Assembly (NCBI GenBank): GCA_001767855.1
Contig: MEMF01000002.1
Coordinates: forward strand, 37,095 to 101,094
Length of the DNA stretch: 64,000 bases
Direction of reading: 5' to 3'
Origin: Alphaproteobacteria bacterium RIFCSPHIGHO2_01_FULL_41_14
GTDB lineage: Bacteria; Pseudomonadota; Alphaproteobacteria; UBA7879; UBA5542
Made by a program: the position numbers and the translations under genes. This document shows positions 2,735-58,558 of this stretch, in pieces (position 1 is the stretch's first letter; each line of letters begins with the position of its first letter). The notes under the pieces were generated by a model. The model did not search any database and was not told the origin of the DNA. It was given only the letters and a program-made list of their open reading frames with translations.

Positions 2735-4066
2735 GTGTTCAACCTCGGAAAATCATATCATCGACTTCACAAAGGCGCATACCATATGACTCGCAGTAAA
2801 ACTATAGGAACTTATTTTTTATTTTTCACACTTCCTCTTATTGCTGTTTTGAAAGGCAAGGGAATTGTAGTTTCTTTGTTTTTAGCTTTTTTCTTATTTA
2901 ATGGCCTCACAGCATTCAAAGATTTTGTGAGGCATAAAGAGTGGAGAAATATTTCCGTTAAAAGTCTTCCTCTCTTTTTTTTCGTATTCTTTTTTCTTTT
3001 CTTTATGCTTTCTTTTTTACAAAATGAGGCCTGCTCCATTTGGCGTCCTTTGAAGCTTATTGGTCTGCTTTCCTTAGTTTTCTTCACTCTGAAAGGATCA
3101 AAAACCCTAGACTTTTCAGAAAAAGAGAGGATCGTTTCTCTTTTTTTTAAAGCTTATATTTTCTACGCTTTGTTTTTGATTTTCGAGATTTATGGAGGAA
3201 GTTGGGTCTCAAAATTTTACACCGGATCAAAAGATTATAATGTTACCCTTTTTATTCGGGGAACTGTTATTTTGACGTTTTTTTTCCTCCCTTTTACCCT
3301 CCTTATCAAGAAAAAATATGGGAAGATTTATGGCCTGTTATTCTCTCTTTTTTTGCTTCTTCTTGTGCTTATAAAAGCCCAACCCAGCGCGGCACGCTTG
3401 GCTGTTCTGGTGGCAGGAATCTTCTTTGCAGCGGGATATTTTCGTAAAGCTTTTGCTGCCACCCTTCTCGGAATAGTGGGAGTCTATATATTGGTTGCCC
3501 CCCTCCTCTCCCTCCATTTTTTAAACCGGAATATTTTGTTTAATCATCTTCATTCTTTGCCGACCAGCTATCAACACCGGGTGGAGATTTGGCATGAGGT
3601 CTCTAAAAATGTGATAAAAAAACCTTGGCTGGGTCACGGATTTGATTACTCCTCACACATCAAAGAATCTCCTCACCGATGTTCCCACCATTCCCTCGCC
3701 AACTTTAAAAAGATTAGTTTTAATGATAAAATTGTCTCCAAAACTCCTCATCTTTGGGGAGGAGTGGTTTGTTATAAGGAGACGATTTTATCAAGCCATC
3801 CCCATAATGGGGCTCTTCAAATTTGGCTAGAGTTTGGGTTTTTAGGGGTCTGTTTTGTATTCTTTTTGTTATATCGGTTTGCCCAATATGCTTCCTCTCT
3901 TCCTTCCTTATTGCGAGGATATACCTACGCTCTTTTTGGGCTGTGTCTCGTTTATTGGAGTGTCAGTTTCGGACTATGGCAAAATTGGATGATTGCTCTA
4001 GCCACCTTGACATTTATTTTGTTTCAACTCATAAATGGCCTGCCTTCAAAGAATAAAGGAAGATAG
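2735..4066 (+). CDS. O-antigen ligase family polytopic membrane protein (Wzy_C / WaaL-like)
   Basis: 443 aa, very hydrophobic with about 10-12 predicted TM segments. It contains the motif RVEIWHEVSKNVIKKPWLGHGFDYSSH, resembling the conserved R..W...P.LG.G.......H loop of O-antigen ligases. The likely true start is the internal Met at about 2786 (MTRSK...). Confidence 0.55.
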   Translation: MFNLGKSYHRLHKGAYHMTRSKTIGTYFLFFTLPLIAVLKGKGIVVSLFLAFFLFNGLTAFKDFVRHKEWRNISVKSLPLFFFVFFFLFFMLSFLQNEACSIWRPLKLIGLLSLVFFTLKGSKTLDFSEKERIVSLFFKAYIFYALFLIFEIYGGSWVSKFYTGSKDYNVTLFIRGTVILTFFFLPFTLLIKKKYGKIYGLLFSLFLLLLVLIKAQPSAARLAVLVAGIFFAAGYFRKAFAATLLGIVGVYILVAPLLSLHFLNRNILFNHLHSLPTSYQHRVEIWHEVSKNVIKKPWLGHGFDYSSHIKESPHRCSHHSLANFKKISFNDKIVSKTPHLWGGVVCYKETILSSHPHNGALQIWLEFGFLGVCFVFFLLYRFAQYASSLPSLLRGYTYALFGLCLVYWSVSFGLWQNWMIALATLTFILFQLINGLPSKNKGR

Positions 4067-4069
4067 AGA

Positions 4070-5014
4070 ATGTACGAATTAGACTTTGAAAAACAAATTC
4101 GAGATTTAGAAGAAAAAATCAAAGAATTAAGCAAGATGTCCGAAAGTAAAGATGTGGATATCGTGGAAGAAGTTTTAATTTTGCAAAAAAAACTCGACAA
4201 ACTTCTCGGGGATACTTACAAAAAACTATCCCCTTGGCAGAAAGTCCAAGTAGCACGCCACCCAAAAAGGCCACACTTTTTAGACTATATCAAGCTTTTG
4301 ATTGAAAACTTTACAGAGCTAGCAGGAGATCGCTTGTTTGCAGAGGATGCCGCTATCGTGGGGGGGATTGGCACATTTCGTGGGCAGCCTGTGGTTATAT
4401 TGGGCCAAGAAAAAGGACATGATATCCAAACGCGCATGCATCATAATTTTGGAGCCCCACGACCAGAAGGGTATCGTAAGGCTCAACGCCTCATGAAACT
4501 GGCGGATCAGTTTCAGTTGCCAGTCATCACGCTTGTGGACACAGCAGGGGCTTATCCTGGTATAGATGCAGAAGAACGTGGGCAGGCAGAAGCGATTGCC
4601 CGCTCCATTGATGTCTGCCTGTCCCTTTCTGTCCCCATTGTTTCCTGTATTATTGGGGAAGGGGGGTCGGGAGGGGCCATTGCTATTGCCGCAGGAAACC
4701 GAATTTTAATGTTAGAAAACTCAATTTACTCTGTTGTTTCACCTGAAGGATGCGCGTCTATTCTTTGGCGCAGTGCCGACAAAAAGAAAGAAGCTGCTGA
4801 AGCTCAAAAATTAACAGCAGAAGACTTGATCGATTTTAAGCTCATTGATCAAATTGTTCCCGAACCCTTAGGGGGCGCTCATCGCAACCCCAAAGAAACC
4901 ATCCTATCGATGGGAGATGCAATTGAAAAATCTCTTAAAGACTTGAAAAATTTTACTCCTAAGCAACTTGTGGCCCGTCGCAGACAAAAGTTTTTAGAAA
5001 TGGGACGTTTTTAA
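4070..5014 (+). CDS. accA: Acetyl-CoA carboxylase carboxyltransferase subunit alpha
   Basis: 314 aa. An N-terminal coiled region is followed by a carboxyltransferase domain (GGAYPGIDAEERGQAEAIARS...GEGGSGGAIAI) typical of AccA. Confidence 0.9.
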   Translation: MYELDFEKQIRDLEEKIKELSKMSESKDVDIVEEVLILQKKLDKLLGDTYKKLSPWQKVQVARHPKRPHFLDYIKLLIENFTELAGDRLFAEDAAIVGGIGTFRGQPVVILGQEKGHDIQTRMHHNFGAPRPEGYRKAQRLMKLADQFQLPVITLVDTAGAYPGIDAEERGQAEAIARSIDVCLSLSVPIVSCIIGEGGSGGAIAIAAGNRILMLENSIYSVVSPEGCASILWRSADKKKEAAEAQKLTAEDLIDFKLIDQIVPEPLGGAHRNPKETILSMGDAIEKSLKDLKNFTPKQLVARRRQKFLEMGRF

Positions 5015-5767
5015 AAAATTATTGATAATCTTGGCATAACTTTTATAGACAGGGCTATTTTGGTCTAGTGTGGCAGGCTGGCCTCCATCGCTTCGACGCA
5101 CAAGATCTGGATCTAACGGGATGCTGCCCAAATAAGGGATTTCTTCTTGTTGGCAAAATCCTAAAAGCGTTTCTTTTTTAAACACATCAATATCATGACC
5201 ACAATGAGGGCATTCTAACCCCGCCATATTTTCGATCATTCCCAAAATTGGAACCTTTAACGTTTGAAATGTTTTTAAGCACCTGATGGCATCCACAAGC
5301 GATAAATTCTGTGGTGTTGAAACTAAAATTGCCCCCATCAACATAACAGATTGAGCAATGGTTAAATGGGCATCCCCTGTTCCAGGGGGCATATCCACAA
5401 TTAATAAATCTAGCTCTGGCCACTCCACATCCATAAATAGCTGCTTGATTGCCGTTTGTAACATGGGTCCTCGCCACATAACTGGCGCTTGTTTATCCAG
5501 TAGAAACCCCATGGAGATAGTCTGAATTCCATGTGCTTCTATGGGTACAAACTTGCCTTCTTTGATGGTTGGTCTTTGCTGCTTCCCCGCAAGGAGAGGA
5601 AGAGAGGGGCCATAGATATCCGCATCGACAATTCCCACCTTAAACCCACGCTCTGCCATCCCAACTGCTAGATTATAGGCAATGGTAGATTTCCCAACTC
5701 CTCCTTTTCCAGAGGCGACAGCAACAATATTTTGGATTTGAGGAAGATTAATCTTGTTAAACTGCAT
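4994..5767 (-). CDS. apbC: Fe-S cluster carrier ATPase Mrp/ApbC family
   Basis: 257 aa with the ParA-type P-loop VASGKGGVGKST and a CPHCGH metal-binding motif typical of Mrp/ApbC. It is a short form lacking an N-terminal extension. Confidence 0.8.
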   Translation of the reverse strand: MQFNKINLPQIQNIVAVASGKGGVGKSTIAYNLAVGMAERGFKVGIVDADIYGPSLPLLAGKQQRPTIKEGKFVPIEAHGIQTISMGFLLDKQAPVMWRGPMLQTAIKQLFMDVEWPELDLLIVDMPPGTGDAHLTIAQSVMLMGAILVSTPQNLSLVDAIRCLKTFQTLKVPILGMIENMAGLECPHCGHDIDVFKKETLLGFCQQEEIPYLGSIPLDPDLVRRSDGGQPATLDQNSPVYKSYAKIINNFLKTSHF

Positions 5768-37461: not shown

Positions 37462-37574
37462 GAGTCATTATTTTCCTTATTCCCCATAACTCTCTAGAAA
37501 AGCTGTTATGTTATTTATTGTGTTTTTACAGTTTGTATTCCATCATGAGATGATCTTTAATACAGGAGGTTACC

Positions 37575-38576
37575 ATGCTAAATTTCAAGAAACTTCTATC
37601 TGTTGGTTTATTGTCAGCTTTTGCCTTAGGGACACTCTCAAGTTATGGGGCACCCGATGAGGGAGCAGCCATTCAGCCGGCCCTCGTTCGCCTGATTGTT
37701 TCCGAATCAGATATCGTCGCTGTTCAACCCTCCGCCGCTGCTGTTCAACCCTCCGCCGCTCCCACTCCCATCTCTTCTGTCACACACCCCACAGACGATG
37801 CTCCCCAAGCTGGATGTTGGGGTAAATTCCTTAGTTGTTGGAAAAAAACTAGTGAAGGAGTGAATGCCATTCTCCCCATTCTTCGGAATGACTTACTGCC
37901 TATCTTACAAATAGTGGCTCTCAACTTAGATCCAAATTCCAGCGAGGCTAAACAACTCCATCAGATTGCGAGTGGCATAGAAAAAGGGACAACTATAGCT
38001 GGCATGATATTTGATCCGAGCACTGGGCAACTTACTCTTCCCAGCGGTGTAACTATTGCCAATGCTCTCTGGTATCTCTGGAATGAAAAATCTTCCACGC
38101 TTACGGATGATTCCGTAGCACTCGGTGGTGTGATGATAAATCGGTGGATGAAGGACATTAATGGAGATACAAAAAAATACGGTATTATTACTGCTAAACT
38201 TGTCCAACTTACCCTTCTCCTCTCAAAGGCAGACGACCCTAAAACCCCTTATAATCCGGTATTTAATCCAACTACAGGGACTGTGTCTCTTAAAAGTGAT
38301 CATAGCCCCCAGCTTCTTGTCAGTATTCCTCTTTTTGGGGAAGAGACTACCCCAGAGACGCATACATTTTTAAAAGGATGCTTTGCAGAATTTGTTCCAG
38401 CCTATGAGAGACGCACTAGCGAAGAAATATCCAATGGAGGGCGCAGAATCCCTGGGAGCTTCCTCCCAGCCACAGGTGTAATATTATCGGCTTACAATAC
38501 ATTAAGGGGAGAGAATCCTCTCTATAGAGCTATAGACCTAGCAATAACTGCTGCAGCTACAGTCACAGACGCTTAA
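37575..38576 (+). CDS. Hypothetical secreted protein with an internal AVQPSAA tandem repeat
   Basis: 333 aa. A strong AGGAGG RBS sits 6 nt upstream. A signal peptide (LLSVGLLSAFALGTLSSYGA) is followed by a Pro/Ala-rich repeat and a globular C-terminal part with no recognised family. Confidence 0.45.
   Translation: MLNFKKLLSVGLLSAFALGTLSSYGAPDEGAAIQPALVRLIVSESDIVAVQPSAAAVQPSAAPTPISSVTHPTDDAPQAGCWGKFLSCWKKTSEGVNAILPILRNDLLPILQIVALNLDPNSSEAKQLHQIASGIEKGTTIAGMIFDPSTGQLTLPSGVTIANALWYLWNEKSSTLTDDSVALGGVMINRWMKDINGDTKKYGIITAKLVQLTLLLSKADDPKTPYNPVFNPTTGTVSLKSDHSPQLLVSIPLFGEETTPETHTFLKGCFAEFVPAYERRTSEEISNGGRRIPGSFLPATGVILSAYNTLRGENPLYRAIDLAITAAATVTDA
37719..37760 (+). repeat. Perfect 2 x 21 bp in-frame tandem repeat (GCTGTTCAACCCTCCGCCGCT)
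   Basis: Directly visible at 37719..37739 and 37740..37760. It encodes AVQPSAA twice within the 37575 ORF. Confidence 0.85.
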
Positions 38577-38629
38577 GAGATAATTTCTCTCTCTTCTGTG
38601 AACACTGCTAACATTTCAAAAACTTGACG

Positions 38630-38666
38630 CCGACGTGGTTTTCACTTACCGTGTCGGTGTTTTGTT
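38630..38666 (+). terminator. Candidate rho-independent terminator after the 37575 ORF
   Basis: 9-bp stem CCGACGTGG / CCGTGTCGG (two G-U wobbles) with a 10-nt loop, followed by TGTTTTGTT. Confidence 0.45.
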
Positions 38667-38676
38667 ATGAACCCGG

Positions 38677-38750
38677 TGGGGGATAGTTTAGTGGTAGAAC
38701 TCTCGACTCTGACTCGAGCAGCCAAGGTTCGAATCCTTGTCCCCCAGCCA
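38677..38750 (+). tRNA. tRNA-Gln (anticodon CUG)
   Basis: Cloverleaf read by eye. Acceptor stem TGGGGGA/TCCCCCA with the U1-A72 pair typical of bacterial tRNA-Gln. Anticodon stem CTCGA/TCGAG with loop CTCTGAC gives anticodon CTG. T-arm CAAGG-TTCGAAT-CCTTG. Discriminator G and encoded CCA. Confidence 0.8.
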
Positions 38751-38763
38751 ATAGCCTTGGAGG

Positions 38764-39324
38764 TTGAAAATGTCTATTCTTGTTGAAAGATCCAACAAAA
38801 ACCATGCTCTTGTTTATGCCACAAAAGTATTATTAGGCAGTTTCTTTATTGCCGCGAGCGCCCAGATTTCCATTCCTTTCTATCCTGTCCCCATGACTAT
38901 GCAGCCTGCAGCTTTGATGATCATTGGTCTTCTTTGTTCCCCTCACATGACTGTCAGCATCGTCACAACCTATCTGATAGAAGCGGCTGTGGGCCTTCCT
39001 GTTCTCTCCAATTTCACGAGTGGGATCCCCCATCTTATCGGCACACGCGGAGGATACATCGTAGGCGGGTTTTTGCCCCTCGCTCTGATCACAAGTTTGA
39101 TGAGACAAGCTTCAGGGCATCTCCTCTATCGAATTCTTGGGTGCCTTTCCGGGAACGTTTTTTTGTACACGGTAGGCATTGCTTGGCTCTCAACCTTCAT
39201 CGGGTTTGAAAAAGCAATTCAATTTGGTTTGTATCCTTTTTTGTGGGAGATTCCGATTTATATTGCCTTTTCCATCCTAACGGCTAATCTTTCGGAACGA
39301 TATCTGAAAGATAAGTTTTTATGA
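38764..39324 (+). CDS. bioY: BioY family biotin transporter (ECF S-component-like)
   Basis: 186 aa with five or six TM segments. The N-terminal ALVYATKVLLGSFFIAASAQISIPFYPVPMTMQ matches the BioY signature region. Confidence 0.7.
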   Translation: MKMSILVERSNKNHALVYATKVLLGSFFIAASAQISIPFYPVPMTMQPAALMIIGLLCSPHMTVSIVTTYLIEAAVGLPVLSNFTSGIPHLIGTRGGYIVGGFLPLALITSLMRQASGHLLYRILGCLSGNVFLYTVGIAWLSTFIGFEKAIQFGLYPFLWEIPIYIAFSILTANLSERYLKDKFL

Positions 39325-39385
39325 AAGAAGCTCAGGGCTATTGTTGGTTTTTTCTCGACATCAAACCCAAAGAGCGGTTCCAATA

Positions 39386-39991
39386 ATGAAAATAAATAAA
39401 TATATTATTTTATTGTTATGTGCCCTTTTTCTTGCAGTAAAAACTCAAGCAGAAAGTGTGGACGACATACCAAAAACCCAAGAAGAAATGGTGAATAATA
39501 TTGGTGTCTTTGGAGGGATCGGAACGGATGATAATATCCAACAGATCATGGAAGGTAAAATACATTTTAAATCAGGCATGGTTGGGGTGTCTGCCCAAAA
39601 AGACTTAGTTAATATAACCCCCTCCACCCAATTCAATGTAGAGGGCCAACTTATCCAGCATTTCAAGGCACAAACGTGCCAAGAAATTACGATGGCTCTG
39701 CTCATCAAAGCATCCAACGTATTTAATGCTGAAAAAGTTCCTTTGAATTTTACGATAGGGGATGGTCTTTCTCTTTTGGTAGGGTCTGTTCCTAAACTAG
39801 AAAGCCATCAGGCAAAACCGCGACGTCTTTTAAACTATTTTTTCCTAGAAGCAGCCACTCCTTTGCCAAGGAAAGATACGGAAATTTTCTTCCGCTGGCA
39901 TCATCGTTGTCACATGTTTGGCCTTATGGCCCCAAATGGAACAGGGTCGAATTTTTTCCTGCTTGGCGTTCGCTTTAAATTAGAGCCTTAA
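39386..39991 (+). CDS. Hypothetical secreted protein, possibly an outer-membrane beta-barrel
   Basis: The start is taken at the internal Met (MKINKYIILLLCALFLAVKTQA signal peptide). About 200 aa with alternating hydrophobic patterns. No family recognised with confidence. Confidence 0.35.
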   Translation: MKINKYIILLLCALFLAVKTQAESVDDIPKTQEEMVNNIGVFGGIGTDDNIQQIMEGKIHFKSGMVGVSAQKDLVNITPSTQFNVEGQLIQHFKAQTCQEITMALLIKASNVFNAEKVPLNFTIGDGLSLLVGSVPKLESHQAKPRRLLNYFFLEAATPLPRKDTEIFFRWHHRCHMFGLMAPNGTGSNFFLLGVRFKLEP

Positions 39992-40070
39992 AGATTTTAA
40001 GGATATTTTTTTCTTGTTCAACATTTAGAACCCCTCTACTATGAAAAATTAATGAATGGAGATTTTTAAT

Positions 40071-40376
40071 ATGAAAAAACTTTTTGTGTCCCTCTTTGTA
40101 GCAACGCTTGGCCTGATCCCCTCTCTTTCAATGGCAGACCTGTACAGTGGAGATAATGTTCTTTTAATGAGTACAGATGGAACTTTTCAAGCAACAGAAC
40201 TACAGTTAAGAACGGCATTAGAAGAATTGGGATGGTCGGATGAAAATATCAAACAACTACGAGCGCTAACGCCCGCAGAGCGTACCCCTTTTATCATCAA
40301 CAACAATTTAAAGTCCGGAGAACCTAAAAAAAGTCTTGATACAATACTAGACTCAGACCTCTCAAATCCTAATTAA
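40071..40376 (+). CDS. Small hypothetical secreted protein
   Basis: About 100 aa with a signal peptide MKKLFVSLFVATLGLIPSLSMA. No family recognised. Confidence 0.3.
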   Translation: MKKLFVSLFVATLGLIPSLSMADLYSGDNVLLMSTDGTFQATELQLRTALEELGWSDENIKQLRALTPAERTPFIINNNLKSGEPKKSLDTILDSDLSNPN

Positions 40377-40451: not shown

Positions 40452-42131
<1,680 letters not shown>

Positions 42132-44851: not shown

Positions 44852-45997
44852 TTATTTCTCTTCTAATTGAGATCTTGCTTCAGATACCCAATCAGGCTCT
44901 TGTTTTTTTTCAATAAATTCCGCAGGATCAAACAAAAGATCTTCCGTATTTCCACCACCCGCACTAGGTTGATCAACCGCCATGATTTCACCAACCTCCG
45001 GGACTAGTTGTGGAGAATTTATTTTAAAAGACATGGCTTTACTAGCTCCAACCACGCTTTTAAGTTCTACTCTTTTTTCCGCAAGTTTTTTTGTTTCTGC
45101 GTCTGTTGCCTTACGATTTGCTAAAATTAAGACAAAATCATACGTTCCATCCAAATTCGGGGTAGAAACAAGATCAATAGTATCTGTATTTTCTTTTAAA
45201 TCCATCATAATAGTGGAAGAACCAGGAACAGATTCATCCACTGCATAAGATTGCACGCTACCGCTATCTATCACTTCTGTTTGCATTGAAGGCCAATTAA
45301 TTTTAGGCAAATAAAGGTACAGTTTCCTGGTTTCTGGCACGATCTGAGATTCAAAAAAATCCTGTTTGTCTGAATTAATAAGAATCCAAGTTGTTCCGTC
45401 TTCTTTAGGCGTGATTATTAAGGCATTAATTTCATTTTTGGGAAGTTCTAACGTTTGTTGAATATTAACTGTGGTCGGCTGGGGAGGTTCCGGTGGCAAG
45501 GCATTTAATTCTGATTCTTGTTCTTCAGGCTCAGGCTCTGGTAAAGGAGGATCATCAGTTATAAGATCCAAGATATACGTTTTTCCTCTTAAGAAACTTC
45601 CCACAAGACGTGTGTAGGGTTCTAAAATCAAGTGACAGGCGCGACGCGATCCAAATCCCATAAGATCATATTGAATAAGAGCCCCCTGTTTTGCTTGCTT
45701 TTGTTCAGGTATCTTCCAAAAGGTGTCTTCCGGAGCCTTAACTAATAAAGAACCATCCTCTGAAGACTCTACATACAGAGAAATGGGATGACTTAAGACA
45801 AAAACAATCCGTGTTTTTTTTATTTCTGTCCCCACCTGAATGTCTTTCACCGTGAGGTTGGCGCGCGGGACACAAACACTGGCCCACAAAAGAAAAAAGA
45901 GAAAACTTTTTTTGCAAAACTGAATCATACACTTCCCTGCATCCTTTTCAGGATACAAGACTTTTTTTATTTTTGCATTATTTTTGAGCCCACTCAA
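44852..45997 (-). CDS. Hypothetical exported protein with AMIN-like domain and Pro/Glu-rich linker
   Basis: 381 aa with a signal-like hydrophobic segment. The TVKDIQVG...TRIVFVLSHPISLYVESSEDGSLLVKAP segment resembles AMIN domains. A PPLPEPEPEEQESE linker follows. No catalytic domain recognised. Confidence 0.4.
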   Translation of the reverse strand: MSGLKNNAKIKKVLYPEKDAGKCMIQFCKKSFLFFLLWASVCVPRANLTVKDIQVGTEIKKTRIVFVLSHPISLYVESSEDGSLLVKAPEDTFWKIPEQKQAKQGALIQYDLMGFGSRRACHLILEPYTRLVGSFLRGKTYILDLITDDPPLPEPEPEEQESELNALPPEPPQPTTVNIQQTLELPKNEINALIITPKEDGTTWILINSDKQDFFESQIVPETRKLYLYLPKINWPSMQTEVIDSGSVQSYAVDESVPGSSTIMMDLKENTDTIDLVSTPNLDGTYDFVLILANRKATDAETKKLAEKRVELKSVVGASKAMSFKINSPQLVPEVGEIMAVDQPSAGGGNTEDLLFDPAEFIEKKQEPDWVSEARSQLEEK

Positions 45998-51216: not shown

Positions 51217-52557
51217 ATGGAAGAAAAATTTAGCTTTAAAATTCAAGATTTTGTTCAGTGGTATGAAGGGCAGCTTCTTTATCCTCATCACTATCAACAA
51301 ATGCGGTATGAAATCCAACAATTAGCCCTATGTTATCTTTCCATCTCTACGCCGTGGTATTGGGGCATACGGTCCCTAGAAATAGACGAAGCCTTATTGC
51401 CAAGTGGTATCATCAGAATTAATTCGGTTTTAGCTGTTTTCCCAGATGGATCTGTCTTGGAAAAAGACAAGATCACCCCCCCCTTCTTAGAAATAGATAT
51501 TTCCTCTCTCAAAGGAGAATTAGAGAATAAAGAAGCGACCATTTACTTAGCTGTTATCAAGCGTCAACCAGACAGCGCCAATACGACAGGTGATTTCCCT
51601 CGCTACATTTCCGCAGAATCAAATGCCATTGTAGATGAAAATACAGGAGAAAGTCCTCTTAACATAGCCAAACTTTCTTTAAGAGCGCTGCTCGTTACAG
51701 AAGAGAAGCTATCTGCTCGCCTCTCTGCTTTCCCTCTGATGAAAATTCTTGTCCAAAATGGAGCTTTTCGTAAAACTAACTTTATTCCGCCTACTCTTTC
51801 TTTTGGCACAGAGGGACCCATTGCAGAACCATTAAAAATTTTGATTACAAAACTAAGGCAACACATTTCTTATCTGTCTGTTCGTCTTCAAGGGCTTAAA
51901 ACAAAAGATCTGATTTCAGTATTAGATTATTACAACACCGTTTATAACGTTTTAACCAGCCGCATTTTATCGCTAGAAGGTATTTATGAGTCAATCGACA
52001 CTCATCCCTATGAGATGTATAAAGAGCTTAATATCGCTGCGGGTACTTATTGCGCTCTGAACCACAATAAACCTCCGCCTGTTTTTCCTCCTTATAATCA
52101 TAGTGATCTAAACGCCACCTTCAGCCCGATAATGGATTTCATTAATGAAATCATAGAATCTATAAAAAGCGCCTCCATTTCTATTATTTTTGATCAAGAC
52201 GGAAGCGTGTTCCAGCAACAAATAAAAGAACCGTATTTGGCTAATAAAATCCTTGTTATTGGTGTGCGTCTTGGAAAAAACATGAGCCGGGCCACAGGCA
52301 TTAGCTGGATTAAGGGAGCTGTCATCTCTTGTGACTTTGCGATCAAAGATATAAAGGAAAAAAGAATTCTAGGGGCAGAAAGAGAGCTGGTAGAACAAAT
52401 TCCCGAAATGGGTCTAGCTGCAGTTCAAGATCAAGTTTTCGTGAAGGTTACAGTAGATCCTGCCTTCATTCGAGCCGATGAATTCTTAAAAATATTTAAC
52501 CCTTCTGACAGAGAAGATTCTCGTCCTGAAGATCTTTTTCTATACGTGGCAGGGTAG
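51217..52557 (+). CDS. tssK: Type VI secretion system baseplate protein TssK (ImpJ/VasE family)
   Basis: 446 aa. The N-terminus VQWYEGQLLYPHHYQQ...PWYWGIRSLEIDEALLPSGIIRINSVLAVFPDGSVL parallels the TssK signature (W.eG..L.PQHFQQ ... PWG...D...L..G.L.....A.FPDG). Its stop abuts the tssL start. Confidence 0.8.
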   Translation: MEEKFSFKIQDFVQWYEGQLLYPHHYQQMRYEIQQLALCYLSISTPWYWGIRSLEIDEALLPSGIIRINSVLAVFPDGSVLEKDKITPPFLEIDISSLKGELENKEATIYLAVIKRQPDSANTTGDFPRYISAESNAIVDENTGESPLNIAKLSLRALLVTEEKLSARLSAFPLMKILVQNGAFRKTNFIPPTLSFGTEGPIAEPLKILITKLRQHISYLSVRLQGLKTKDLISVLDYYNTVYNVLTSRILSLEGIYESIDTHPYEMYKELNIAAGTYCALNHNKPPPVFPPYNHSDLNATFSPIMDFINEIIESIKSASISIIFDQDGSVFQQQIKEPYLANKILVIGVRLGKNMSRATGISWIKGAVISCDFAIKDIKEKRILGAERELVEQIPEMGLAAVQDQVFVKVTVDPAFIRADEFLKIFNPSDREDSRPEDLFLYVAG

Positions 52558-53343
52558 ATGCACACAGATATCTATTTGAAATCTGCCATATTACAAGATT
52601 TTAGAACTTTCTATCGTGAGTTGCTTATCTTACAAGACATGGCTCTTGAGCATGGGATTTCTAAAAAAGAGACAAAAACACCCGATGAAACCGCGGTTGA
52701 ATTGGCTCAGTCCCAAGACCAAACGCTCGGTCATCGTATCCGACAACGATTAGAAAACCTCTTTATGTCTCAATATTCTGAAGTGAGTAACCAAATCTAT
52801 GTGGCGTCATATTATCGAGAAGCTCAATACATCATGGTCGCTCTGGCAGATGAGATTTTTATCAATTTAAATTGGCGCGGCAGTGAAGAGTGGAAGGATA
52901 ACTTATTAGAATCTCTTATTTACAACACACAAGATTCGGGGGATAAATTTTTTGAAAATCTAGACCTTCTTCTAGGTGCTAAGAGTTCCCAATCAACAGA
53001 TATGGCTGCCCTTTATTTGTTTGCTTTGGGTCTGGGCTTTAAGGGAAGATACCGGGGAACAAAAAACGAAGACGAACTTTTTGCTTATCGAAAAAAACTA
53101 TACCGGTATATTACTGCTGACAATCTAGACTTATTGGAAAATAGATCCCCTCTTTTTCCTCAGGTGTATGAAAACATTATTGATGATCGGCAAAACATAA
53201 TAATCCCAGATTCTCGCCCTTGGTGGATATCATTAGGAGTCATTCTGGTAGGTTTTATCGGCGTGTCTTCTCTCATTTGGTTAACGCATATGAATATTTT
53301 TTCTCCTCTTATTCGCACACTTGAAAAATGGTCAGGATTTTAG
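52558..53343 (+). CDS. tssL: Type VI secretion system membrane protein TssL (DotU/ImpK family)
   Basis: 261 aa with a DotU-type core (YIMVALADEIFINLNWRGSEEW ... MAALYLFALGLGFKGRYRG) and a single C-terminal TM helix (WWISLGVILVGFIGVSSLIWL). Confidence 0.8.
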   Translation: MHTDIYLKSAILQDFRTFYRELLILQDMALEHGISKKETKTPDETAVELAQSQDQTLGHRIRQRLENLFMSQYSEVSNQIYVASYYREAQYIMVALADEIFINLNWRGSEEWKDNLLESLIYNTQDSGDKFFENLDLLLGAKSSQSTDMAALYLFALGLGFKGRYRGTKNEDELFAYRKKLYRYITADNLDLLENRSPLFPQVYENIIDDRQNIIIPDSRPWWISLGVILVGFIGVSSLIWLTHMNIFSPLIRTLEKWSGF

Positions 53344-56300
53344 ATGAGTGATATTTCTTCATTCCAGCTCATTCTCTCTATTCTCGGACTGGGAAGTCTT
53401 GTCTTTATGTTGGCCACTTATTTGTCGGGAATTGGTCTTAAGGAGCAATTCGAAAAAGTAGGCATCCGTACTCTTTCAATTTTTGGGGCCTTAAAAGATG
53501 TGTTGGGAGGAAAACGAGAGCTTAACTCTCTTTCCTTTAAACATTTTTTTCAAGATCTTTTTTATGGCATTCTAAATCTATTCGGCATTTATCCTCAGGG
53601 ACCTTTTTATGAATCTATGCGACAAGTGGTTCGGGCTCTCGAGGAAAGAACGGGCTCTAAGAAAACTCTTTACGAACTTCCTTGGTTTATCATGGTTGGT
53701 ACTGAAGGTGCAGGAAAATCATCTTTATTAGGAAACTTGACCTTATCAACCCCCATTTCCAGCCCAAATTTTGGCAACCCAGATGGCCATCCTCTCATCC
53801 AGTGGTGGTTCTATGAAAGGGGAATTGTTCTTGATATTAGCGGAAGAGTTCTGGACTCAAAACAACCCTCTCTGACAGAGTCTTGGGAAACTTTTTTGAA
53901 AGCACTCAGACGGTATCGCCCTCATCGTCCTCTGGATGGGATTATTTTTACTGTCCCCTCTACTCAATTTGCAGGCCCCGGGCAGCTGTCAAAACCTGAA
54001 CTGGTAGAACAAGCACACCAGCTCTCTAACCAGTTGGTCAAAATTGAAAAAATATTAGGCCTGAAACTTCCTCTCTATGCTTTATTGACAAAATGCGATG
54101 AAGTTGGAGGGTTCCAAAGCTTTGTAAAATCTTTGCCTCAAAAGTCTCTGGGAGAACCATTTGGATGGTCCAACCCTTACGCCACCAATCTCTCTTTTGA
54201 TCCAAAGTGGATCTCAGAAGCATTTCAAACCATGTATGCCTCAGTATACGAAATCATTATTCGAATTTTCGGGAATGAATCGACGGAAAACCCTGGTCGT
54301 AATGAAGTTGTTGCTTTCCCAGAAAGTTTTATTCAGCTCCAAGATTCAGTTCAAACCTATCTCAGCGTTTTATTTAAAACAGGAGACTATGACGATCACT
54401 TTATCTTTAGGGGCCTCTTTGTCACAGGAACTGGGGAAGAGAATGCATCGTTAAAAATACTAGCTCAACCTTTTTTATCTGATTTATTTACCAAAAAAAT
54501 ATTCTCTGAATTCGGGCTTGCGACCCCTATTAAAAAGTTTTTCCTCATTATGAGTAAAAAAATTAATTTACTGAGATTCTCTATCTCGGCAGCTTTTATT
54601 ATCGCGATTTATGGGCTCTGTTGGACCAATCAATATTTGACAGATACCCTTTACCATATTCGGCCATTAATCAAACAAGTTCAGGAAGATCTGGAAACTA
54701 AAAACTGGGACAATAGTTTTAAAGAAAAGAAGGTGGATATTACCCAACACGAAGGGAAAGCAGTCCTCCAACTTTTAGACACTATTTATACTTATCGGTT
54801 ACGCCACCTGTTGATTCCCATGTCATGGGTAAGCCCCACTGTTTACAAACTTGATCATGTCACAGCCGAACTTTATAACAAAATCATTGCAAGGAATATG
54901 GCCGCCTTTTTAGGAGCGAAAGCAGATCGCTTAACAACGGCTCCCCTCTCGATAACCCCGTCTCAAAAAGTATATCAGTCACCTCTTGAAACTTCAGAAT
55001 TTTTGTTACTGGAAGGTTATGTAAAAGGTCTGGCTAACTTAGAGCGAGCAAGCCTTCTTTATGCAACTCTACAAGAAACTCAAGATCTCTTCCAATTAGC
55101 GGAAATTCTAAATTATCTTTATGGTTACTCCCTCAGCCCTGATTTCTTAAAATCCAGAGTTGCAAAAAGAATTCTTATTACACAGGCCTCTTACGAAACA
55201 TTTGATATAAGCAGCTACCGCCTTTACGCCGAAAAACGACTTTATCTCCTCTATGATGTCTTCCTTAGAAAAATTCTAGACCCTGAGTATATTTATTCTT
55301 TAGCTGGTCGATTGCAAAATTCTCTTCAGCATGTGGAAGGAAGACGCCAGCCTGATCTGGAAATCCTGAAAAAAAGCATCTCCGACATTAAAGAGTTAGT
55401 AGGATTCTTAACTCAGGCTGGAGGAAGCTGGCTTTCGAACCCCCAATTCAACCCCGGCTCTCGTTATCAACAATTGATTGATCAAATCAAACATATTGGC
55501 TTGCTAGGAACGAATATTCCTCAAACTCTGTCTGAAACCTCTGGTAGAATGTATGAAAAAGCGGTTCGATATCTAAGAAGTTATGGATCTTCTATAACTG
55601 GTTATTTTTTAAGTGTTTCCCCCCAGACTCAGAAATTAGAGCCCTCTCCTGGCCTTATCAATCTTGAAAAGCAATTAGATACCTTCTTACAACAACCTTT
55701 TATGCAAAAAGCATCCGGATCTTTCTTTGTTGATAAAATTCCCCAAGGACAATTCTTACACTGGGATTCTCAGGCCGTACGCAATGCTGTTTCTCTCGTG
55801 GAGGCTTATAAATCTTTCGTAGGGACAGAGCTCACAAAATATCCTGCTAATTTGCAAGATACTCTTCGTCAAGCTGGTTTTTACCAAACTCAAAGAAATA
55901 TAGAAGCCATGCTTGAGCAGGCCCAGACTTTCTATGAAGATCCTCAGCGTGATTGGTCAGAACAAGCTGAAGATGCGAGACGCGCCCAGTCTATGAACAT
56001 TAATGAAGTGGGTCCTTTGTTCATCAAACTCATTAAGGATCTGGATGCGATGGGAGGAGGAGCAACTTATTTAAGGCTTAGAAATCTTTTGTTTGAACAA
56101 ATGTATAAGAACCTAAAAAACCTCGACAAAACTTTAAGAGACAGCGCCTATTATCAACCCCCAGATCAAAGTTTTTCATCCTGGAAAGGAGAAACTGACG
56201 GTGTCCTTAAGGCCTTTAATATAACCGACGTCTCAGAGATGAAGGATTATTTTGCGAATCAGAGTGCCCGAATTTTAACTATGGTCATTAATAATGCCGA

Positions 56301-57411
56301 ACCTGTTATCGAAATATTTAAAGCAGATTTGTTTGATACCAATATTGATCAAATTAAATTGATTAGTAAATGGAATGGTCTTGTGGAGCAGGCCATTTCC
56401 TACAAAAAATCTAAAGCCAGCGGCTCTATGAAGTCTCTTGAAAAATTCATGGAAGAGGACGGTAATAAAATTACTTATGCAACGTGTTTCACAGACTTGA
56501 AACCAGAGAAATTTGATCAACCCTCTAGTGATTATTTTACTGAGAAACAAAATGATCTCAAGCGGAGTATGTATAAACGTTGTCAGGAACTGGCAGCTGA
56601 GAAGGGGGCTCAACAATATAATAAACTGGAAAATACCTTTAACACTTATCTTGCAAACTCTTTCCCATTTACGAGACAGGTTCCCAACACCCCTCAACTC
56701 GAATCTGAAGCTTCTTGGCCACTCTTACAAGAACTCTTTACAGAGTTAGAAGTTTTAACACCTGGTGTGAGACAATCCTTAAAAGAGTCCAAAAAATACA
56801 GCAATGGATGGAAGAAAGTCGAAAAATTCATTTCTCAGCTTGATAGCGTCAAAAAATTCTTCGAGACTTATTTTTCTCCCCTAAAAAAAGACAGTGATCC
56901 TGGGATGACCTTTAACATTAAATTCCGAGACAATAGGGTTAAAGAATCCTTCGGAAACCAAATATCAGATTGGGCCATTATTTTTGGTGATAAATCTCTT
57001 AGTATTCGACAAAATGGTTCAGGGGTTTCCAATGGACGATGGGTGATGAGTAGCCCTGTTTCTTTCGGCTTTCAGTGGACCACTCCCTCTGTTCTCCTAC
57101 CCTTAACAGAGACGAATATTCCCTCCCTCGTAAAGGTGAATGATCGATCCTTATTTGTTTATGAAGGCACTTGGAGTATCTTGCGTGCGATCATGCTGCA
57201 CCTTGCAAAACCAGAAGAAGGAGGCTCCCTTACCAATGATGTCCTTTTAAAATTTGAAATCCCCCTTGGACCCCCTTCAGCCACCGCCCCAGTTTCCCTA
57301 GCTAAATTGTATCTGAGACTTATGCCTCAAACAGAGAAAGGCCAAAACGCTGTTAACTTCAAGATTCCAACTTTCCCGGTCCAAGCTCCCAAACTAATAG
57401 GAGAAATGTGA
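53344..57411 (+). CDS. tssM: Type VI secretion system membrane subunit TssM (IcmF family)
   Basis: 1355 aa. An N-terminal TM helix, a cytoplasmic P-loop (WFIMVGTEGAGKSSLLGN), a further TM at about residue 410, and a large periplasmic C-terminal region. The gene order K-L-M matches T6SS membrane-complex operons. Confidence 0.8.
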   Translation: MSDISSFQLILSILGLGSLVFMLATYLSGIGLKEQFEKVGIRTLSIFGALKDVLGGKRELNSLSFKHFFQDLFYGILNLFGIYPQGPFYESMRQVVRALEERTGSKKTLYELPWFIMVGTEGAGKSSLLGNLTLSTPISSPNFGNPDGHPLIQWWFYERGIVLDISGRVLDSKQPSLTESWETFLKALRRYRPHRPLDGIIFTVPSTQFAGPGQLSKPELVEQAHQLSNQLVKIEKILGLKLPLYALLTKCDEVGGFQSFVKSLPQKSLGEPFGWSNPYATNLSFDPKWISEAFQTMYASVYEIIIRIFGNESTENPGRNEVVAFPESFIQLQDSVQTYLSVLFKTGDYDDHFIFRGLFVTGTGEENASLKILAQPFLSDLFTKKIFSEFGLATPIKKFFLIMSKKINLLRFSISAAFIIAIYGLCWTNQYLTDTLYHIRPLIKQVQEDLETKNWDNSFKEKKVDITQHEGKAVLQLLDTIYTYRLRHLLIPMSWVSPTVYKLDHVTAELYNKIIARNMAAFLGAKADRLTTAPLSITPSQKVYQSPLETSEFLLLEGYVKGLANLERASLLYATLQETQDLFQLAEILNYLYGYSLSPDFLKSRVAKRILITQASYETFDISSYRLYAEKRLYLLYDVFLRKILDPEYIYSLAGRLQNSLQHVEGRRQPDLEILKKSISDIKELVGFLTQAGGSWLSNPQFNPGSRYQQLIDQIKHIGLLGTNIPQTLSETSGRMYEKAVRYLRSYGSSITGYFLSVSPQTQKLEPSPGLINLEKQLDTFLQQPFMQKASGSFFVDKIPQGQFLHWDSQAVRNAVSLVEAYKSFVGTELTKYPANLQDTLRQAGFYQTQRNIEAMLEQAQTFYEDPQRDWSEQAEDARRAQSMNINEVGPLFIKLIKDLDAMGGGATYLRLRNLLFEQMYKNLKNLDKTLRDSAYYQPPDQSFSSWKGETDGVLKAFNITDVSEMKDYFANQSARILTMVINNAEPVIEIFKADLFDTNIDQIKLISKWNGLVEQAISYKKSKASGSMKSLEKFMEEDGNKITYATCFTDLKPEKFDQPSSDYFTEKQNDLKRSMYKRCQELAAEKGAQQYNKLENTFNTYLANSFPFTRQVPNTPQLESEASWPLLQELFTELEVLTPGVRQSLKESKKYSNGWKKVEKFISQLDSVKKFFETYFSPLKKDSDPGMTFNIKFRDNRVKESFGNQISDWAIIFGDKSLSIRQNGSGVSNGRWVMSSPVSFGFQWTTPSVLLPLTETNIPSLVKVNDRSLFVYEGTWSILRAIMLHLAKPEEGGSLTNDVLLKFEIPLGPPSATAPVSLAKLYLRLMPQTEKGQNAVNFKIPTFPVQAPKLIGEM

Positions 57412-57418
57412 AAAGATC

Positions 57419-58558
57419 ATGCCCCTTTATGAAACGCTAGATCCTCTTTTACAAGACATCCCCGGTCCAAATCCTCAAGGAAAAGACCTTAAATATAGCA
57501 CAGAATATGATCAAATCAGAGAAGCCTCTCGAGAAGACTTAGATTTGCCCCAGGGTGTGTGGGTGCAAGATTTAAAATCTGCAAATTGGGGGGACGTTGA
57601 AAAACTATGCCTAAATATTTTACAAACACAATCGAAAGATTTGCAGGTTGTTGCTTGGCTCTTAGAAGCTTGGATGTCTCTTTATAGTATGAAAGGGCTC
57701 AAGCAAGGGTTTGATTTACTTTTACAGATGTCTCAGAAATATTGGGATACAGCATTCCCTCAACTTAATCCGCAAGATCCTGAGTTCAGAAGCGCGCCAT
57801 ATAATTGGATTAATGAAAGATTATCTAATCGGTTTAATAAGATTGAAGTAACAGCCCCTGATGATCCAGATCTTTTAACTTATTCCTATTCAACCTACCT
57901 TGATCTCCAAAAAGATGGGGGTATTGTTATTACGGGTTCTTCAGAAGAGCAAAACCTTTCTGAAAAGAGAACCGGATTTGCAAAAAGTCTCAAAAAAACC
58001 AAAGACGATTTTTTTGTTGGTCTTAAAGCTGATGGAGAAGAAACCCTAACTCTTATTAAAAATCTGCAGTCGTTTTTAGACAGTAAGTTCGGGGCTGACG
58101 GCCCCTCTCTTTATCACGCTCAAGATAAAATACAAGAATTTATTAACTTTTTCGAACAGACGCTAGCCGCTCGGCATCAGCCTCAAGAAAATGTTTCAGT
58201 CAAACTCGAGGCAGGAGAAGAGGAAGAAAACGCCTCTTCCTCAGAAAACACGCCCCCTGCTGCCAATACAAATGTGCATGTGGACATGGTGATGAACAGC
58301 CGTTCTGATGCCTATGCTCTTATCAATCAGGCCGCAGATTATTTAGAAAAACTTGATCCCCACAGCCCATCACCCCATCTTATTAAACGCGCGATTCGAT
58401 GGAGTAATTTAGACTTAAAGAACTTGCTGCAAGAAATGATTAAAGATCCAAGTTCCCTTGAAGACCTCAAACATCTTCTCGGCATGGCCCAGGAGACAAA
58501 TACCTCCGAAACAGGTGACGCTCTCTCCGGCCCACAATCAACCGATCCCTCTTCTTAA
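57419..58558 (+). CDS. tssA: Type VI secretion system protein TssA (ImpA N-terminal domain family)
   Basis: 379 aa. The N-terminus LLQDIPGPNPQGKDLKYSTEYDQIREASRED...WGDVEKLCLNILQTQSKDLQVVAWLLEAW matches the ImpA_N signature (P.G.DL.YD..F..L...R ... SKDL.V..WL..A). Confidence 0.75.
   Translation: MPLYETLDPLLQDIPGPNPQGKDLKYSTEYDQIREASREDLDLPQGVWVQDLKSANWGDVEKLCLNILQTQSKDLQVVAWLLEAWMSLYSMKGLKQGFDLLLQMSQKYWDTAFPQLNPQDPEFRSAPYNWINERLSNRFNKIEVTAPDDPDLLTYSYSTYLDLQKDGGIVITGSSEEQNLSEKRTGFAKSLKKTKDDFFVGLKADGEETLTLIKNLQSFLDSKFGADGPSLYHAQDKIQEFINFFEQTLAARHQPQENVSVKLEAGEEEENASSSENTPPAANTNVHVDMVMNSRSDAYALINQAADYLEKLDPHSPSPHLIKRAIRWSNLDLKNLLQEMIKDPSSLEDLKHLLGMAQETNTSETGDALSGPQSTDPSS

What the first reader, a model, noticed from the sequence alone, without database searches (positions are those of the whole stretch)
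37575..38576. Secreted protein with a perfect 2 x 21 bp in-frame tandem repeat, next to tRNA-Gln
A strongly RBS-driven ORF (AGGAGG 6 nt upstream) encodes a signal peptide, then AVQPSAA-AVQPSAA-PTPISS, encoded by an exact 21-bp duplication at 37719..37760. A 270-aa globular region follows with no recognisable family. Perfect short tandem repeats in exported proteins are contingency or length-variation loci, and copy number can differ between strains by slipped-strand mispairing. The gene lies immediately 5' of a tRNA gene, a classic hotspot for acquired DNA, and it has its own terminator (38630..38666).
Basis: seen in the sequence. Interest (0 to 1): 0.5.

Follow-up and report, generated by a model that had tools for sequence, protein, structure and literature searches.

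The report
Orphan exported protein with polymorphic linker duplication
This is a real, fast-evolving exported protein of unknown family from an uncultured groundwater alphaproteobacterium; its floppy N-terminal linker carries a recent 7-residue duplication that is present in one or two copies in nature, and the gene is a stable resident of the chromosome, not DNA acquired next to the tRNA.

Summary
ORF 37575..38576 (333 aa) has a strong RBS, a type-I signal peptide and an exact 2 x 21 bp in-frame duplication (37719..37760, AVQPSAA x2). A conserved terminator hairpin and tRNA-Gln(CTG) follow.

- **Copy number varies.** Public assemblies of the same near-clonal groundwater population carry two copies on at least 24 contigs and one copy on 2 contigs. 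The one-copy contig matches the window over 7.3 kb apart from the 21-bp gap.
- **The repeat lies in a length-tolerant linker.** The linker is predicted to be disordered and ranges from 6 to 54 aa across the family. No orthologue has a repeat and no allele has more than two copies. The change is in frame, so nothing is switched on or off. I read it as a slippage-type length polymorphism, not a contingency locus.
- **The tRNA-island idea fails.** The order yifB–X–tRNA-Gln–bioY–…–groESL is conserved in every relative, down to 25–29% identity of X. There is no att-like duplicate of the tRNA end, and GC3 is native.
- **X is an orphan.** About 15 sequence clusters exist among 1.8 billion representatives, with no Pfam, NCBIfam, PHROG or PDB match by sequence or fold. 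X is under purifying selection (dN/dS about 0.14) but diverges much faster than all its neighbours.

Interest is modest.

The parts
37525..37554 (+). Sigma-70-like promoter candidate for X (TTTACA, 18 nt, TG-GATGAT)
   Evidence: Consensus scan only, and the number of matches equals what shuffles give. This is an inference, not shown.
37564..37569 (+). Shine-Dalgarno AGGAGG, 5 nt before the ATG
   Evidence: Read directly from the sequence.
37575..38576 (+). Gene X: a 333-aa exported orphan protein
   Evidence: ORF list. The identical protein is on at least 24 public contigs. Orthologues at 51-58% and 25-33% identity sit in the same slot. dN/dS is 0.135 in the closest pair.
37575..37649 (+). Type-I (Sec) signal peptide, residues 1-25, predicted cleavage SYG|A
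   Evidence: The n, h and c regions were read by inspection. The segment is conserved across the family. AF2 models residues 3-23 as a helix. Cleavage was not tested.
37650..37814 (+). Disordered linker rich in Pro, Ala, Ser and Thr, residues 26-80
   Evidence: pLDDT is about 32-42. Linker length is 6-54 aa across the family, and 52% of residues in this protein's linker are P, A, S or T.
37719..37739 (+). Repeat copy 1 (GCTGTTCAACCCTCCGCCGCT = AVQPSAA, residues 49-55)
   Evidence: TRF. One of the two copies is absent in L011/P0006.
37740..37760 (+). Repeat copy 2, identical to copy 1 (residues 56-62)
   Evidence: TRF, 100% match.
37815..37838 (+). Conserved Cys motif C81-W-x2-F-x2-C88, followed by K-K-T; a possible periplasmic disulfide
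   Evidence: C81, W82, F85, C88, K91 and T92 are invariant in the close orthologues. The GCW…C..KT consensus holds across the family. The disulfide is an inference.
37860..38534 (+). Conserved helical core with a 3-stranded beta-meander (residues about 96-320), no known fold
38626..38666 (+). Intrinsic terminator hairpin (14 bp) plus T-run, conserved
   Evidence: All 8 loci keep the hairpin, with one compensatory change and several wobble changes.
38677..38750 (+). tRNA-Gln(CTG), a conserved neighbour and not an integration site
   Evidence: ARAGORN and Rfam. The tRNA is present between X and bioY in L011, L012, L015, L018, L019, L021, L023 and L024.
38770..39324 (+). bioY (biotin transporter S component), starting 19 nt after the tRNA
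   Evidence: Pfam BioY, E = 5e-25. The tRNA-bioY gap is 17-22 nt in all loci.

Best explanation
X is a genuine, vertically inherited, lineage-restricted gene of an uncultured groundwater alphaproteobacterium (Alphaproteobacteria bacterium GWB1_45_5 and related RIFCSP MAGs).

**Protein.** It is exported by Sec through a cleavable type-I signal peptide. The mature protein starts with an intrinsically disordered linker rich in Pro, Ala, Ser and Thr. A small two-Cys motif follows, and then a conserved domain of about 230 aa, mostly helical with one beta-meander, that matches no known fold.

**Repeat.** The 2 x 21 bp repeat is a recent in-frame tandem duplication inside that linker. It arose by replication slippage or unequal exchange, and can be lost the same way. 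It lengthens a length-tolerant spacer by seven residues. In the natural population it segregates as a one-copy versus two-copy polymorphism, most likely neutral or nearly so.

**Rate.** The gene evolves much faster than all its neighbours, as expected for an envelope or extracellular protein facing a changing partner or under weak constraint, but it is still under purifying selection.

**What is shown and what is inferred.** Shown: the anatomy, the polymorphism in assemblies, the synteny, the rate difference and the absence of known homologues. Inferred: export and cleavage, the slippage mechanism, neutrality and cellular location.
For: **Polymorphism**
- P0006 is the window protein minus exactly one AVQPSAA unit.
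- Its contig L011 has 0 mismatches to the window over 7,278 bp, plus one 21-bp gap.
- Ten other contigs all carry 2 copies. The index lists the two-copy protein in 26 blocks, and P0006 on 2 contigs.

**Linker tolerance**
- pLDDT is below 50 for residues 11-93.
- Linker length is 6-54 aa among family members, and the orthologues have no repeat.

**Real gene under constraint**
- dN/dS is 0.135 for L012 versus L015 and 0.216 for the window versus L018.

**Fast evolution**
- X is 25-29% identical where YifB is 67-84% and GroEL 86-95%, and 51-55% identical where YifB is 83-87%.

**Vertical inheritance**
- The same rsmI-UPF0102-BON-yifB-X-tRNAGln-bioY-…-groESL-MFS-LysR order appears wherever the contig extends that far (L012, L015, L018, L021, L023, L024). 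The short contig L019 shows X-tRNA-Gln-bioY.
- GC3 is 0.368 against 0.384 +/- 0.041 for the window's genes.

**Orphan status**
- 17 hits among 1.84 billion representatives, about 14 of them real.
- No hit in 80 outgroup yifB loci.
- No match in any family or structure library.
Against: - The one-copy allele rests on 2 assembled contigs only, and I could not inspect reads.
- Neutrality is assumed, not measured. The gene is exported and is the fastest-evolving gene at the locus, so selection on linker length cannot be excluded.
- Signal-peptide cleavage and the protein's location were not tested. No dedicated signal-peptide predictor was available.
- The N-terminal half of the structural model (residues 1-160) has low confidence.
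Confidence: 0.7

Rival explanations
1. Contingency or size-variation locus. On this view the repeat is a hypermutable tract, and its expansion and contraction are selected to vary a surface-exposed protein for antigenic, phage or host evasion.
For: - One- and two-copy alleles occur on an otherwise identical 7.3-kb background. At this site the indel therefore appeared before any point mutation nearby.
- The protein is exported and is the fastest-evolving gene at the locus.
- Linker length differs widely across the family.
Against: - Only two states were seen, and the 90% cluster contains no allele with three or more copies.
- The unit is 21 bp (3 x 7), so slippage cannot switch expression.
- None of the orthologues or distant members has a tandem repeat at this position.
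- About 25 contigs carry two copies and 2 contigs carry one, so one allele dominates instead of a spread.
- MutL is encoded in the window.
- From my own knowledge: two copies of a 21-bp unit is at the bottom of the range where slippage is frequent.
Confidence: 0.15
2. The repeat is fixed at two copies, and the one-copy 'allele' is an assembly collapse of the tandem repeat.
For: - Only 2 contigs carry it, and the one shown (L011, k141_3987722) has a k141 (MEGAHIT-style) name.
- Zero flanking SNPs is also what an artefact would give.
- Reads could not be examined.
Against: - The whole repeat is 42 bp, far shorter than reads and than the final k = 141, so a collapsed path should lack k-mer support. 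This is reasoning, not a test.
- Two separate contigs of different length (23.5 kb and 44.7 kb) carry the allele.
- At least 24 other assemblies of the same region did not collapse the repeat.
Confidence: 0.12
3. X is horizontally acquired cargo of a genomic island integrated at tRNA-Gln.
For: The gene lies beside a tRNA, belongs to an orphan family, and has a slightly higher overall GC than the window (0.459 against 0.418).
Against: - X lies 5' of the tRNA, whereas islands integrate at the 3' end (own knowledge).
- There is no att-like copy of the tRNA 3' end in 64 kb.
- None of the flanking genes examined has an integrase or recombinase domain.
- Synteny is identical in every relative, with X diverging in place.
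- GC3 is native.
Confidence: 0.02

Closest known systems
In-frame tandem-repeat (VNTR-type) size variation in bacterial surface and exported proteins, such as group B Streptococcus alpha C/Rib and Mycoplasma Vlp (own knowledge)
   Same: An identical in-frame DNA unit sits in tandem inside an exported protein, and copy number differs between otherwise identical genomes.
   Different: - There are only 1-2 copies of a 7-aa unit, not many copies of a long unit.
- The repeat lies in a disordered spacer, not in a folded repeat domain.
- No antigenic role has been shown.
- Orthologues lack the repeat.
Simple-sequence contingency loci, i.e. phase-variable genes in Neisseria, Haemophilus and Campylobacter (Moxon and colleagues; own knowledge)
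   Same: Both involve repeat-mediated slippage as the source of variation in a gene for an envelope or secreted protein.
   Different: Contingency loci use long tracts of 1-8 nt units that shift the reading frame or change promoter spacing, giving reversible on/off switching. Here the unit is 21 nt, in frame and present twice, so no switching is possible.
Flexible Pro/Ala/Ser/Thr-rich spacers of envelope proteins, such as the TonB and TolA periplasmic spacers and OmpA-like linkers (own knowledge)
   Same: A low-complexity, disordered, length-variable segment connects an N-terminal targeting or anchor element to a folded domain.
   Different: There is no sequence or fold relationship to those proteins. 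Here the N-terminal hydrophobic segment looks like a cleavable signal peptide, not an anchor.
tRNA-linked genomic islands
   Same: Only the adjacency to a tRNA gene.
   Different: There is no integrase, no att repeat and no compositional anomaly at third codon positions, and the locus is syntenic in all relatives.

Membership tests
Contingency (phase-variable simple-sequence repeat) locus | A repeat tract within the coding region or promoter | tested here: met
   A 21-bp x 2 repeat lies inside the ORF.
Contingency (phase-variable simple-sequence repeat) locus | Copy number differs among closely related genomes | tested here: met
   One-copy (P0006/L011) and two-copy alleles occur on an identical background. 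The evidence is at assembly level only.
Contingency (phase-variable simple-sequence repeat) locus | A copy-number change switches expression, by frameshift or altered promoter spacing | tested here: not met
   The unit is 21 nt, i.e. 7 codons. Both alleles encode full-length proteins of 326 and 333 aa.
Contingency (phase-variable simple-sequence repeat) locus | A long hypermutable tract with many units and many allelic states | tested here: not met
   There are 2.0 copies. The 90% cluster holds only 326-aa and 333-aa forms.
VNTR-type size-variable exported protein | Identical in-frame tandem units with size variants among isolates | tested here: met
   This is the minimal case, one versus two units.
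VNTR-type size-variable exported protein | Surface exposure or a selective role for the size variation | not testable with these tools
   This needs localisation and serological or phage-adsorption experiments.
tRNA-linked genomic island | A direct repeat of the tRNA 3' end (attL/attR) | tested here: not met
   The 25-nt tRNA 3' end has a single match in the 64-kb window at up to 3 mismatches.
tRNA-linked genomic island | An integrase or recombinase adjacent to the tRNA | tested here: not met
   The flanking genes are UPF0102, BON, YifB, BioY, two small hypothetical ORFs and GroEL. Those scanned with Pfam show no integrase domain, and GroEL is identified by the precomputed Cpn60_TCP1 annotation.
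tRNA-linked genomic island | Variable presence among relatives and atypical composition | tested here: not met
   X is present in the same slot in every related locus. GC3 is 0.368 against 0.384 +/- 0.041.
Sec-exported protein with a type-I signal peptide | A positively charged n-region, a hydrophobic h-region of 10-15 residues, and small residues at -3 and -1 | tested here: met
   By inspection: K5 and K6, then L7-L21, then S23-Y24-G25|A26. The segment is conserved across the family. No dedicated predictor was available, and cleavage was not tested.
Bacterial lipoprotein | A lipobox [LVI][ASTVI][GAS]C at the end of the signal peptide | tested here: not met
   There is no Cys before residue 81 (translation).
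Any curated protein family or solved fold | A significant match by sequence or structure | tested here: not met

The most novel reading that the evidence does not exclude
X would found an undescribed family of rapidly diversifying exported proteins with a new fold. The family is confined to one uncultured alphaproteobacterial lineage that also carries a type VI secretion system. On this reading the protein mediates contact with a host, prey or phage partner. Linker length, changed by tandem duplication and deletion, would tune how far the folded domain reaches from the envelope, so the one- versus two-copy polymorphism would be under selection and not neutral.
Probability: 0.12. Interest if true: 0.5.

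Novelty: new member of a known kind. Interest (0 to 1): 0.27.

Why it matters
This is a clean natural example of a tandem-duplication indel arising on an otherwise invariant genomic background, inside the disordered linker of an exported protein. It shows how linker length drifts in such proteins. It also flags a small, unannotated and fast-evolving exported family with no known fold in an uncultured groundwater lineage, which is a reasonable target for structural or metaproteomic follow-up. Nothing here currently points to a new mechanism or an unusual biological system.

Tried and rejected
- **JGI metagenome-contig scans.** I ran two, one with a variable-gap pattern covering one to three copies and one with a plain flank pattern. 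Both returned nothing, although the pattern works locally. That collection evidently lacks this lineage, so I obtained no broader allele census.
- **Genome contigs with the family alignment A3.** No relative was found.
- **Genome contigs with YifB as anchor.** This returned 80 outgroup loci (YifB at most 63% identical). None carries a family member, or a tRNA-Gln in the six closest loci scanned, downstream of yifB. The organism's own genomes are not in that collection.
- **Word-indexed homologue search with the 15-sequence profile.** It added nothing new.
- **First AF2 model from 3 sequences.** It was unusable at pLDDT 44. The second, from 15 sequences, is good only for residues about 170-310.
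- **Weak PDB sequence hit 8an0_A ('putative secreted protein', E = 0.25).** It was not recovered by either family profile and I rejected it as chance.
- **Spurious profile hits.** P0021 (Calx-beta-like repeats) is a false hit. P0023 shares only the N-terminal leader, linker and Cys motif.
- **Literature search for the MAG name.** No papers were found. NCBI taxonomy gives only 'unclassified Alphaproteobacteria'.
- **Paralogues of X in the window.** None was found.
- **Codon-usage distance.** X ranks 2nd of 42 genes, but this reflects its amino-acid composition. GC3 is normal, so I did not take it as evidence of transfer.

Full report
**1. Checking the observation**

- The ORF 37575..38576 (+) encodes 333 aa. 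AGGAGG at 37564..37569 lies 5 nt before the ATG.
- Tandem Repeats Finder reports 37719..37760 as period 21, 2.0 copies, 100% identical. This corresponds to residues 49-55 and 56-62, AVQPSAA twice.
- It is the only perfect tandem duplication with a period of 12-60 nt in the 64-kb window. Only 1 of 20 Markov-simulated windows had any.
- The N-terminus has the n, h and c anatomy of a type-I signal peptide (KK, then L7-L21, then S-Y-G|A) and no lipobox cysteine.
- tRNA-Gln(CTG) is at 38677..38750.
- A 14-bp hairpin plus T-run at 38626..38666 folds at -23.9 kcal/mol, z = -3.4.

**2. Source organism and copy-number variation**

The identical protein is on at least 24 public contigs. These include NCBI MAG GCA_001767775.1 (named 'Alphaproteobacteria bacterium GWB1_45_5' and similar), a UBA MAG, and JGI, ENA and Logan assemblies labelled groundwater metagenome. 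NCBI places the organism only in 'unclassified Alphaproteobacteria'.

The population is nearly clonal. Eight of the ten contigs fetched for the two-copy allele are 100% identical to the window over 5-13 kb.

The 90%-identity cluster has three members:
- the window sequence, 333 aa;
- a G288E variant, 333 aa;
- P0006, 326 aa, which is the window protein minus exactly one AVQPSAA unit.

P0006 occurs on 2 contigs. The one I fetched (L011) matches the window over 7,278 bp with zero mismatches and a single 21-bp gap. Copy number therefore does vary (1 versus 2), and the indel is the only difference on that background. No allele with three or more copies is on record.

This evidence comes from assemblies only. 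Both scans of the JGI contig collection came back empty because that collection lacks the lineage, and I had no access to reads.

**3. The gene is not acquired DNA**

Homologues at 51-58% identity (P0002, P0003/8, P0009) and at 25-33% identity (P0011, P0016, P0017) lie in exactly the same slot. The order is rsmI, UPF0102, BON, yifB, X, tRNA-Gln(CTG), bioY, a short variable stretch, groESL, MFS, LysR. P0012 sits on a 2.5-kb contig (L019), which still shows X, tRNA-Gln and bioY in that order.
- The tRNA 3' end has no second copy in the window.
- None of the flanking genes examined carries an integrase or recombinase domain.
- GC3 of X is 0.368, inside the window norm of 0.384 +/- 0.041.
- Outgroup genomes, with YifB at most 63% identical, have unrelated genes after yifB. 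The six closest have no tRNA-Gln there, and none of the 80 encodes a family member.

X is a lineage-specific gene that has diverged in place. The truly variable spot of the locus is the interval between bioY and groEL.

**4. What the protein is**

It matches nothing in Pfam, NCBIfam, PHROGs or PDB sequences. A profile search of 1.84 billion representative proteins found 17 hits, about 14 of them credible. The family is therefore tiny.

All full-length members share the same plan:
- a signal peptide;
- a linker of 6-54 aa;
- a GCW…C..KT motif;
- a conserved core with invariant G151, D220, G235, A276, R280, Y307 and L310.

**5. Evolutionary rate**

| Comparison with the window | X | YifB | BioY | GroEL |
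|---|---|---|---|---|
| L012, L015, L018 | 51-55% | 83-87% | 70-73% | 94-95% |
| L023, L024 | 29% | 82-84% | 65-70% | 93-95% |

In the least saturated pair (L012 versus L015), X has dN = 0.100 and dN/dS = 0.135. That is the highest ratio at the locus, where the other genes range from 0.004 to 0.116, but it is far below 1. X is a real, constrained gene and the least constrained one at the locus.

**6. Interpretation**

The duplication sits in a disordered spacer whose length is free to vary across the family. It is in frame and has only two states, and it is absent from the orthologues. Those carry a single related segment, for example TPVRPAVPTP, where the window protein has AVQPSAA-AVQPSAA-PTP.

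The simplest reading is a recent slippage-type tandem duplication, or its reversal, that segregates as a length polymorphism of little or no functional consequence. 'Contingency locus' in the accepted sense requires switching and long hypermutable tracts, and those features were tested here and not met. I cannot exclude a size-variation role under selection, because the protein is exported and fast-evolving, and I give that 0.15. I give an assembly artefact for the one-copy allele 0.12, and the tRNA-island reading 0.02.

**7. Side observation**

The 55-nt element between X and the tRNA (CTTGACGCCGAC..GGTTTTCAC.TACCGTGTCGGTGTTTT…) is almost invariant across eight loci, even where X has fallen to 25-29% identity. 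The hairpin is kept with one compensatory change and several wobble changes.

The hairpin ends about 15 nt before the mature tRNA 5' end, and bioY starts 17-22 nt after the tRNA CCA in every locus. tRNA-Gln and bioY must therefore share a transcript.

A plausible promoter is embedded in the terminator: a -35 element TTCACA in the hairpin loop, 16-17 nt of spacer, and a -10 element TATTAT (TGTTAT in the window). This is my reading of the alignment and is untested.

**8. Verdict**

The finding is a new member of a known kind, namely an in-frame tandem-duplication length polymorphism in the linker of an exported protein, carried by an uncharacterised orphan family. Interest is modest.

Noticed in passing
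window 38623-38676 (and L012, L015, L018, L019, L021, L023, L024): The X-to-tRNA-Gln intergenic hairpin element is nearly invariant across loci in which X itself is only 25-29% identical. A possible promoter for tRNA-Gln/bioY is embedded in the terminator: -35 TTCACA in the loop, 16-17 nt of spacer, then -10 TATTAT, ending about 8 nt before the tRNA 5' end.
   Followed up: partly
window 38677-38772: bioY (ATG at 38770, RBS GGAGG at 38759-38763) starts only 19 nt after the tRNA-Gln CCA end, and 17-22 nt after it in all related loci. The tRNA and bioY mRNA must therefore be co-transcribed and then separated by processing.
   Followed up: partly
window 51217-58558: A type VI secretion gene cluster: an IcmF/TssM-like protein of 1355 aa (53344-57411) and ImpA/TssA (57419-58558). 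The two ORFs just upstream (51217-53343) were not examined.
   Followed up: no
window 39341-40376: Two small ORFs with signal-peptide-like N-termini and no family (216 aa and 106 aa) lie between bioY and groEL. In related loci this interval holds different small ORFs, or an acyltransferase in L021, so it is the variable spot of an otherwise syntenic region.
   Followed up: partly
window 44852-45997 (-): A hypothetical protein of about 380 aa with no Pfam match is conserved next to the LysR/MFS pair in the related loci that extend that far (354-374 aa), at only 49-72% identity over partial alignments.
   Followed up: no
window 37668-37688: A possible degenerate third copy of the repeat upstream in the linker: GCCATTCAGCCGGCCCTCGTT (AIQPALV), in frame, with 13 of 21 nt matching the unit. 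A similar [RQ]P.[IVF][RK][LF] motif recurs in the linkers of distant family members. The evidence is weak.
   Followed up: partly
window 40458-40491: A 9-bp x 3.8 repeat, which is the reverse strand of the GroEL C-terminal GGM repeat tail. This is ordinary.
   Followed up: yes
window 2977-3018: An imperfect T-rich 12-bp x 3.5 tandem repeat (TTTTTTCTTTTC) lies inside the ORF 2735-4066.
   Followed up: no
L009 about 5010-5163 (window about 41666-41818): The end of this public contig diverges sharply inside groEL. It looks like a chimeric assembly end joining another organism's groEL, not real strain variation.
   Followed up: partly
L020 7001-7960: The most distant family members (P0020 and P0022, 21-24% identity) have almost no linker. 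P0020 sits in a different context, after era and before a thioredoxin-reductase-like gene and a phage-type integrase. The family is therefore not always tied to the yifB-bioY slot.
   Followed up: partly
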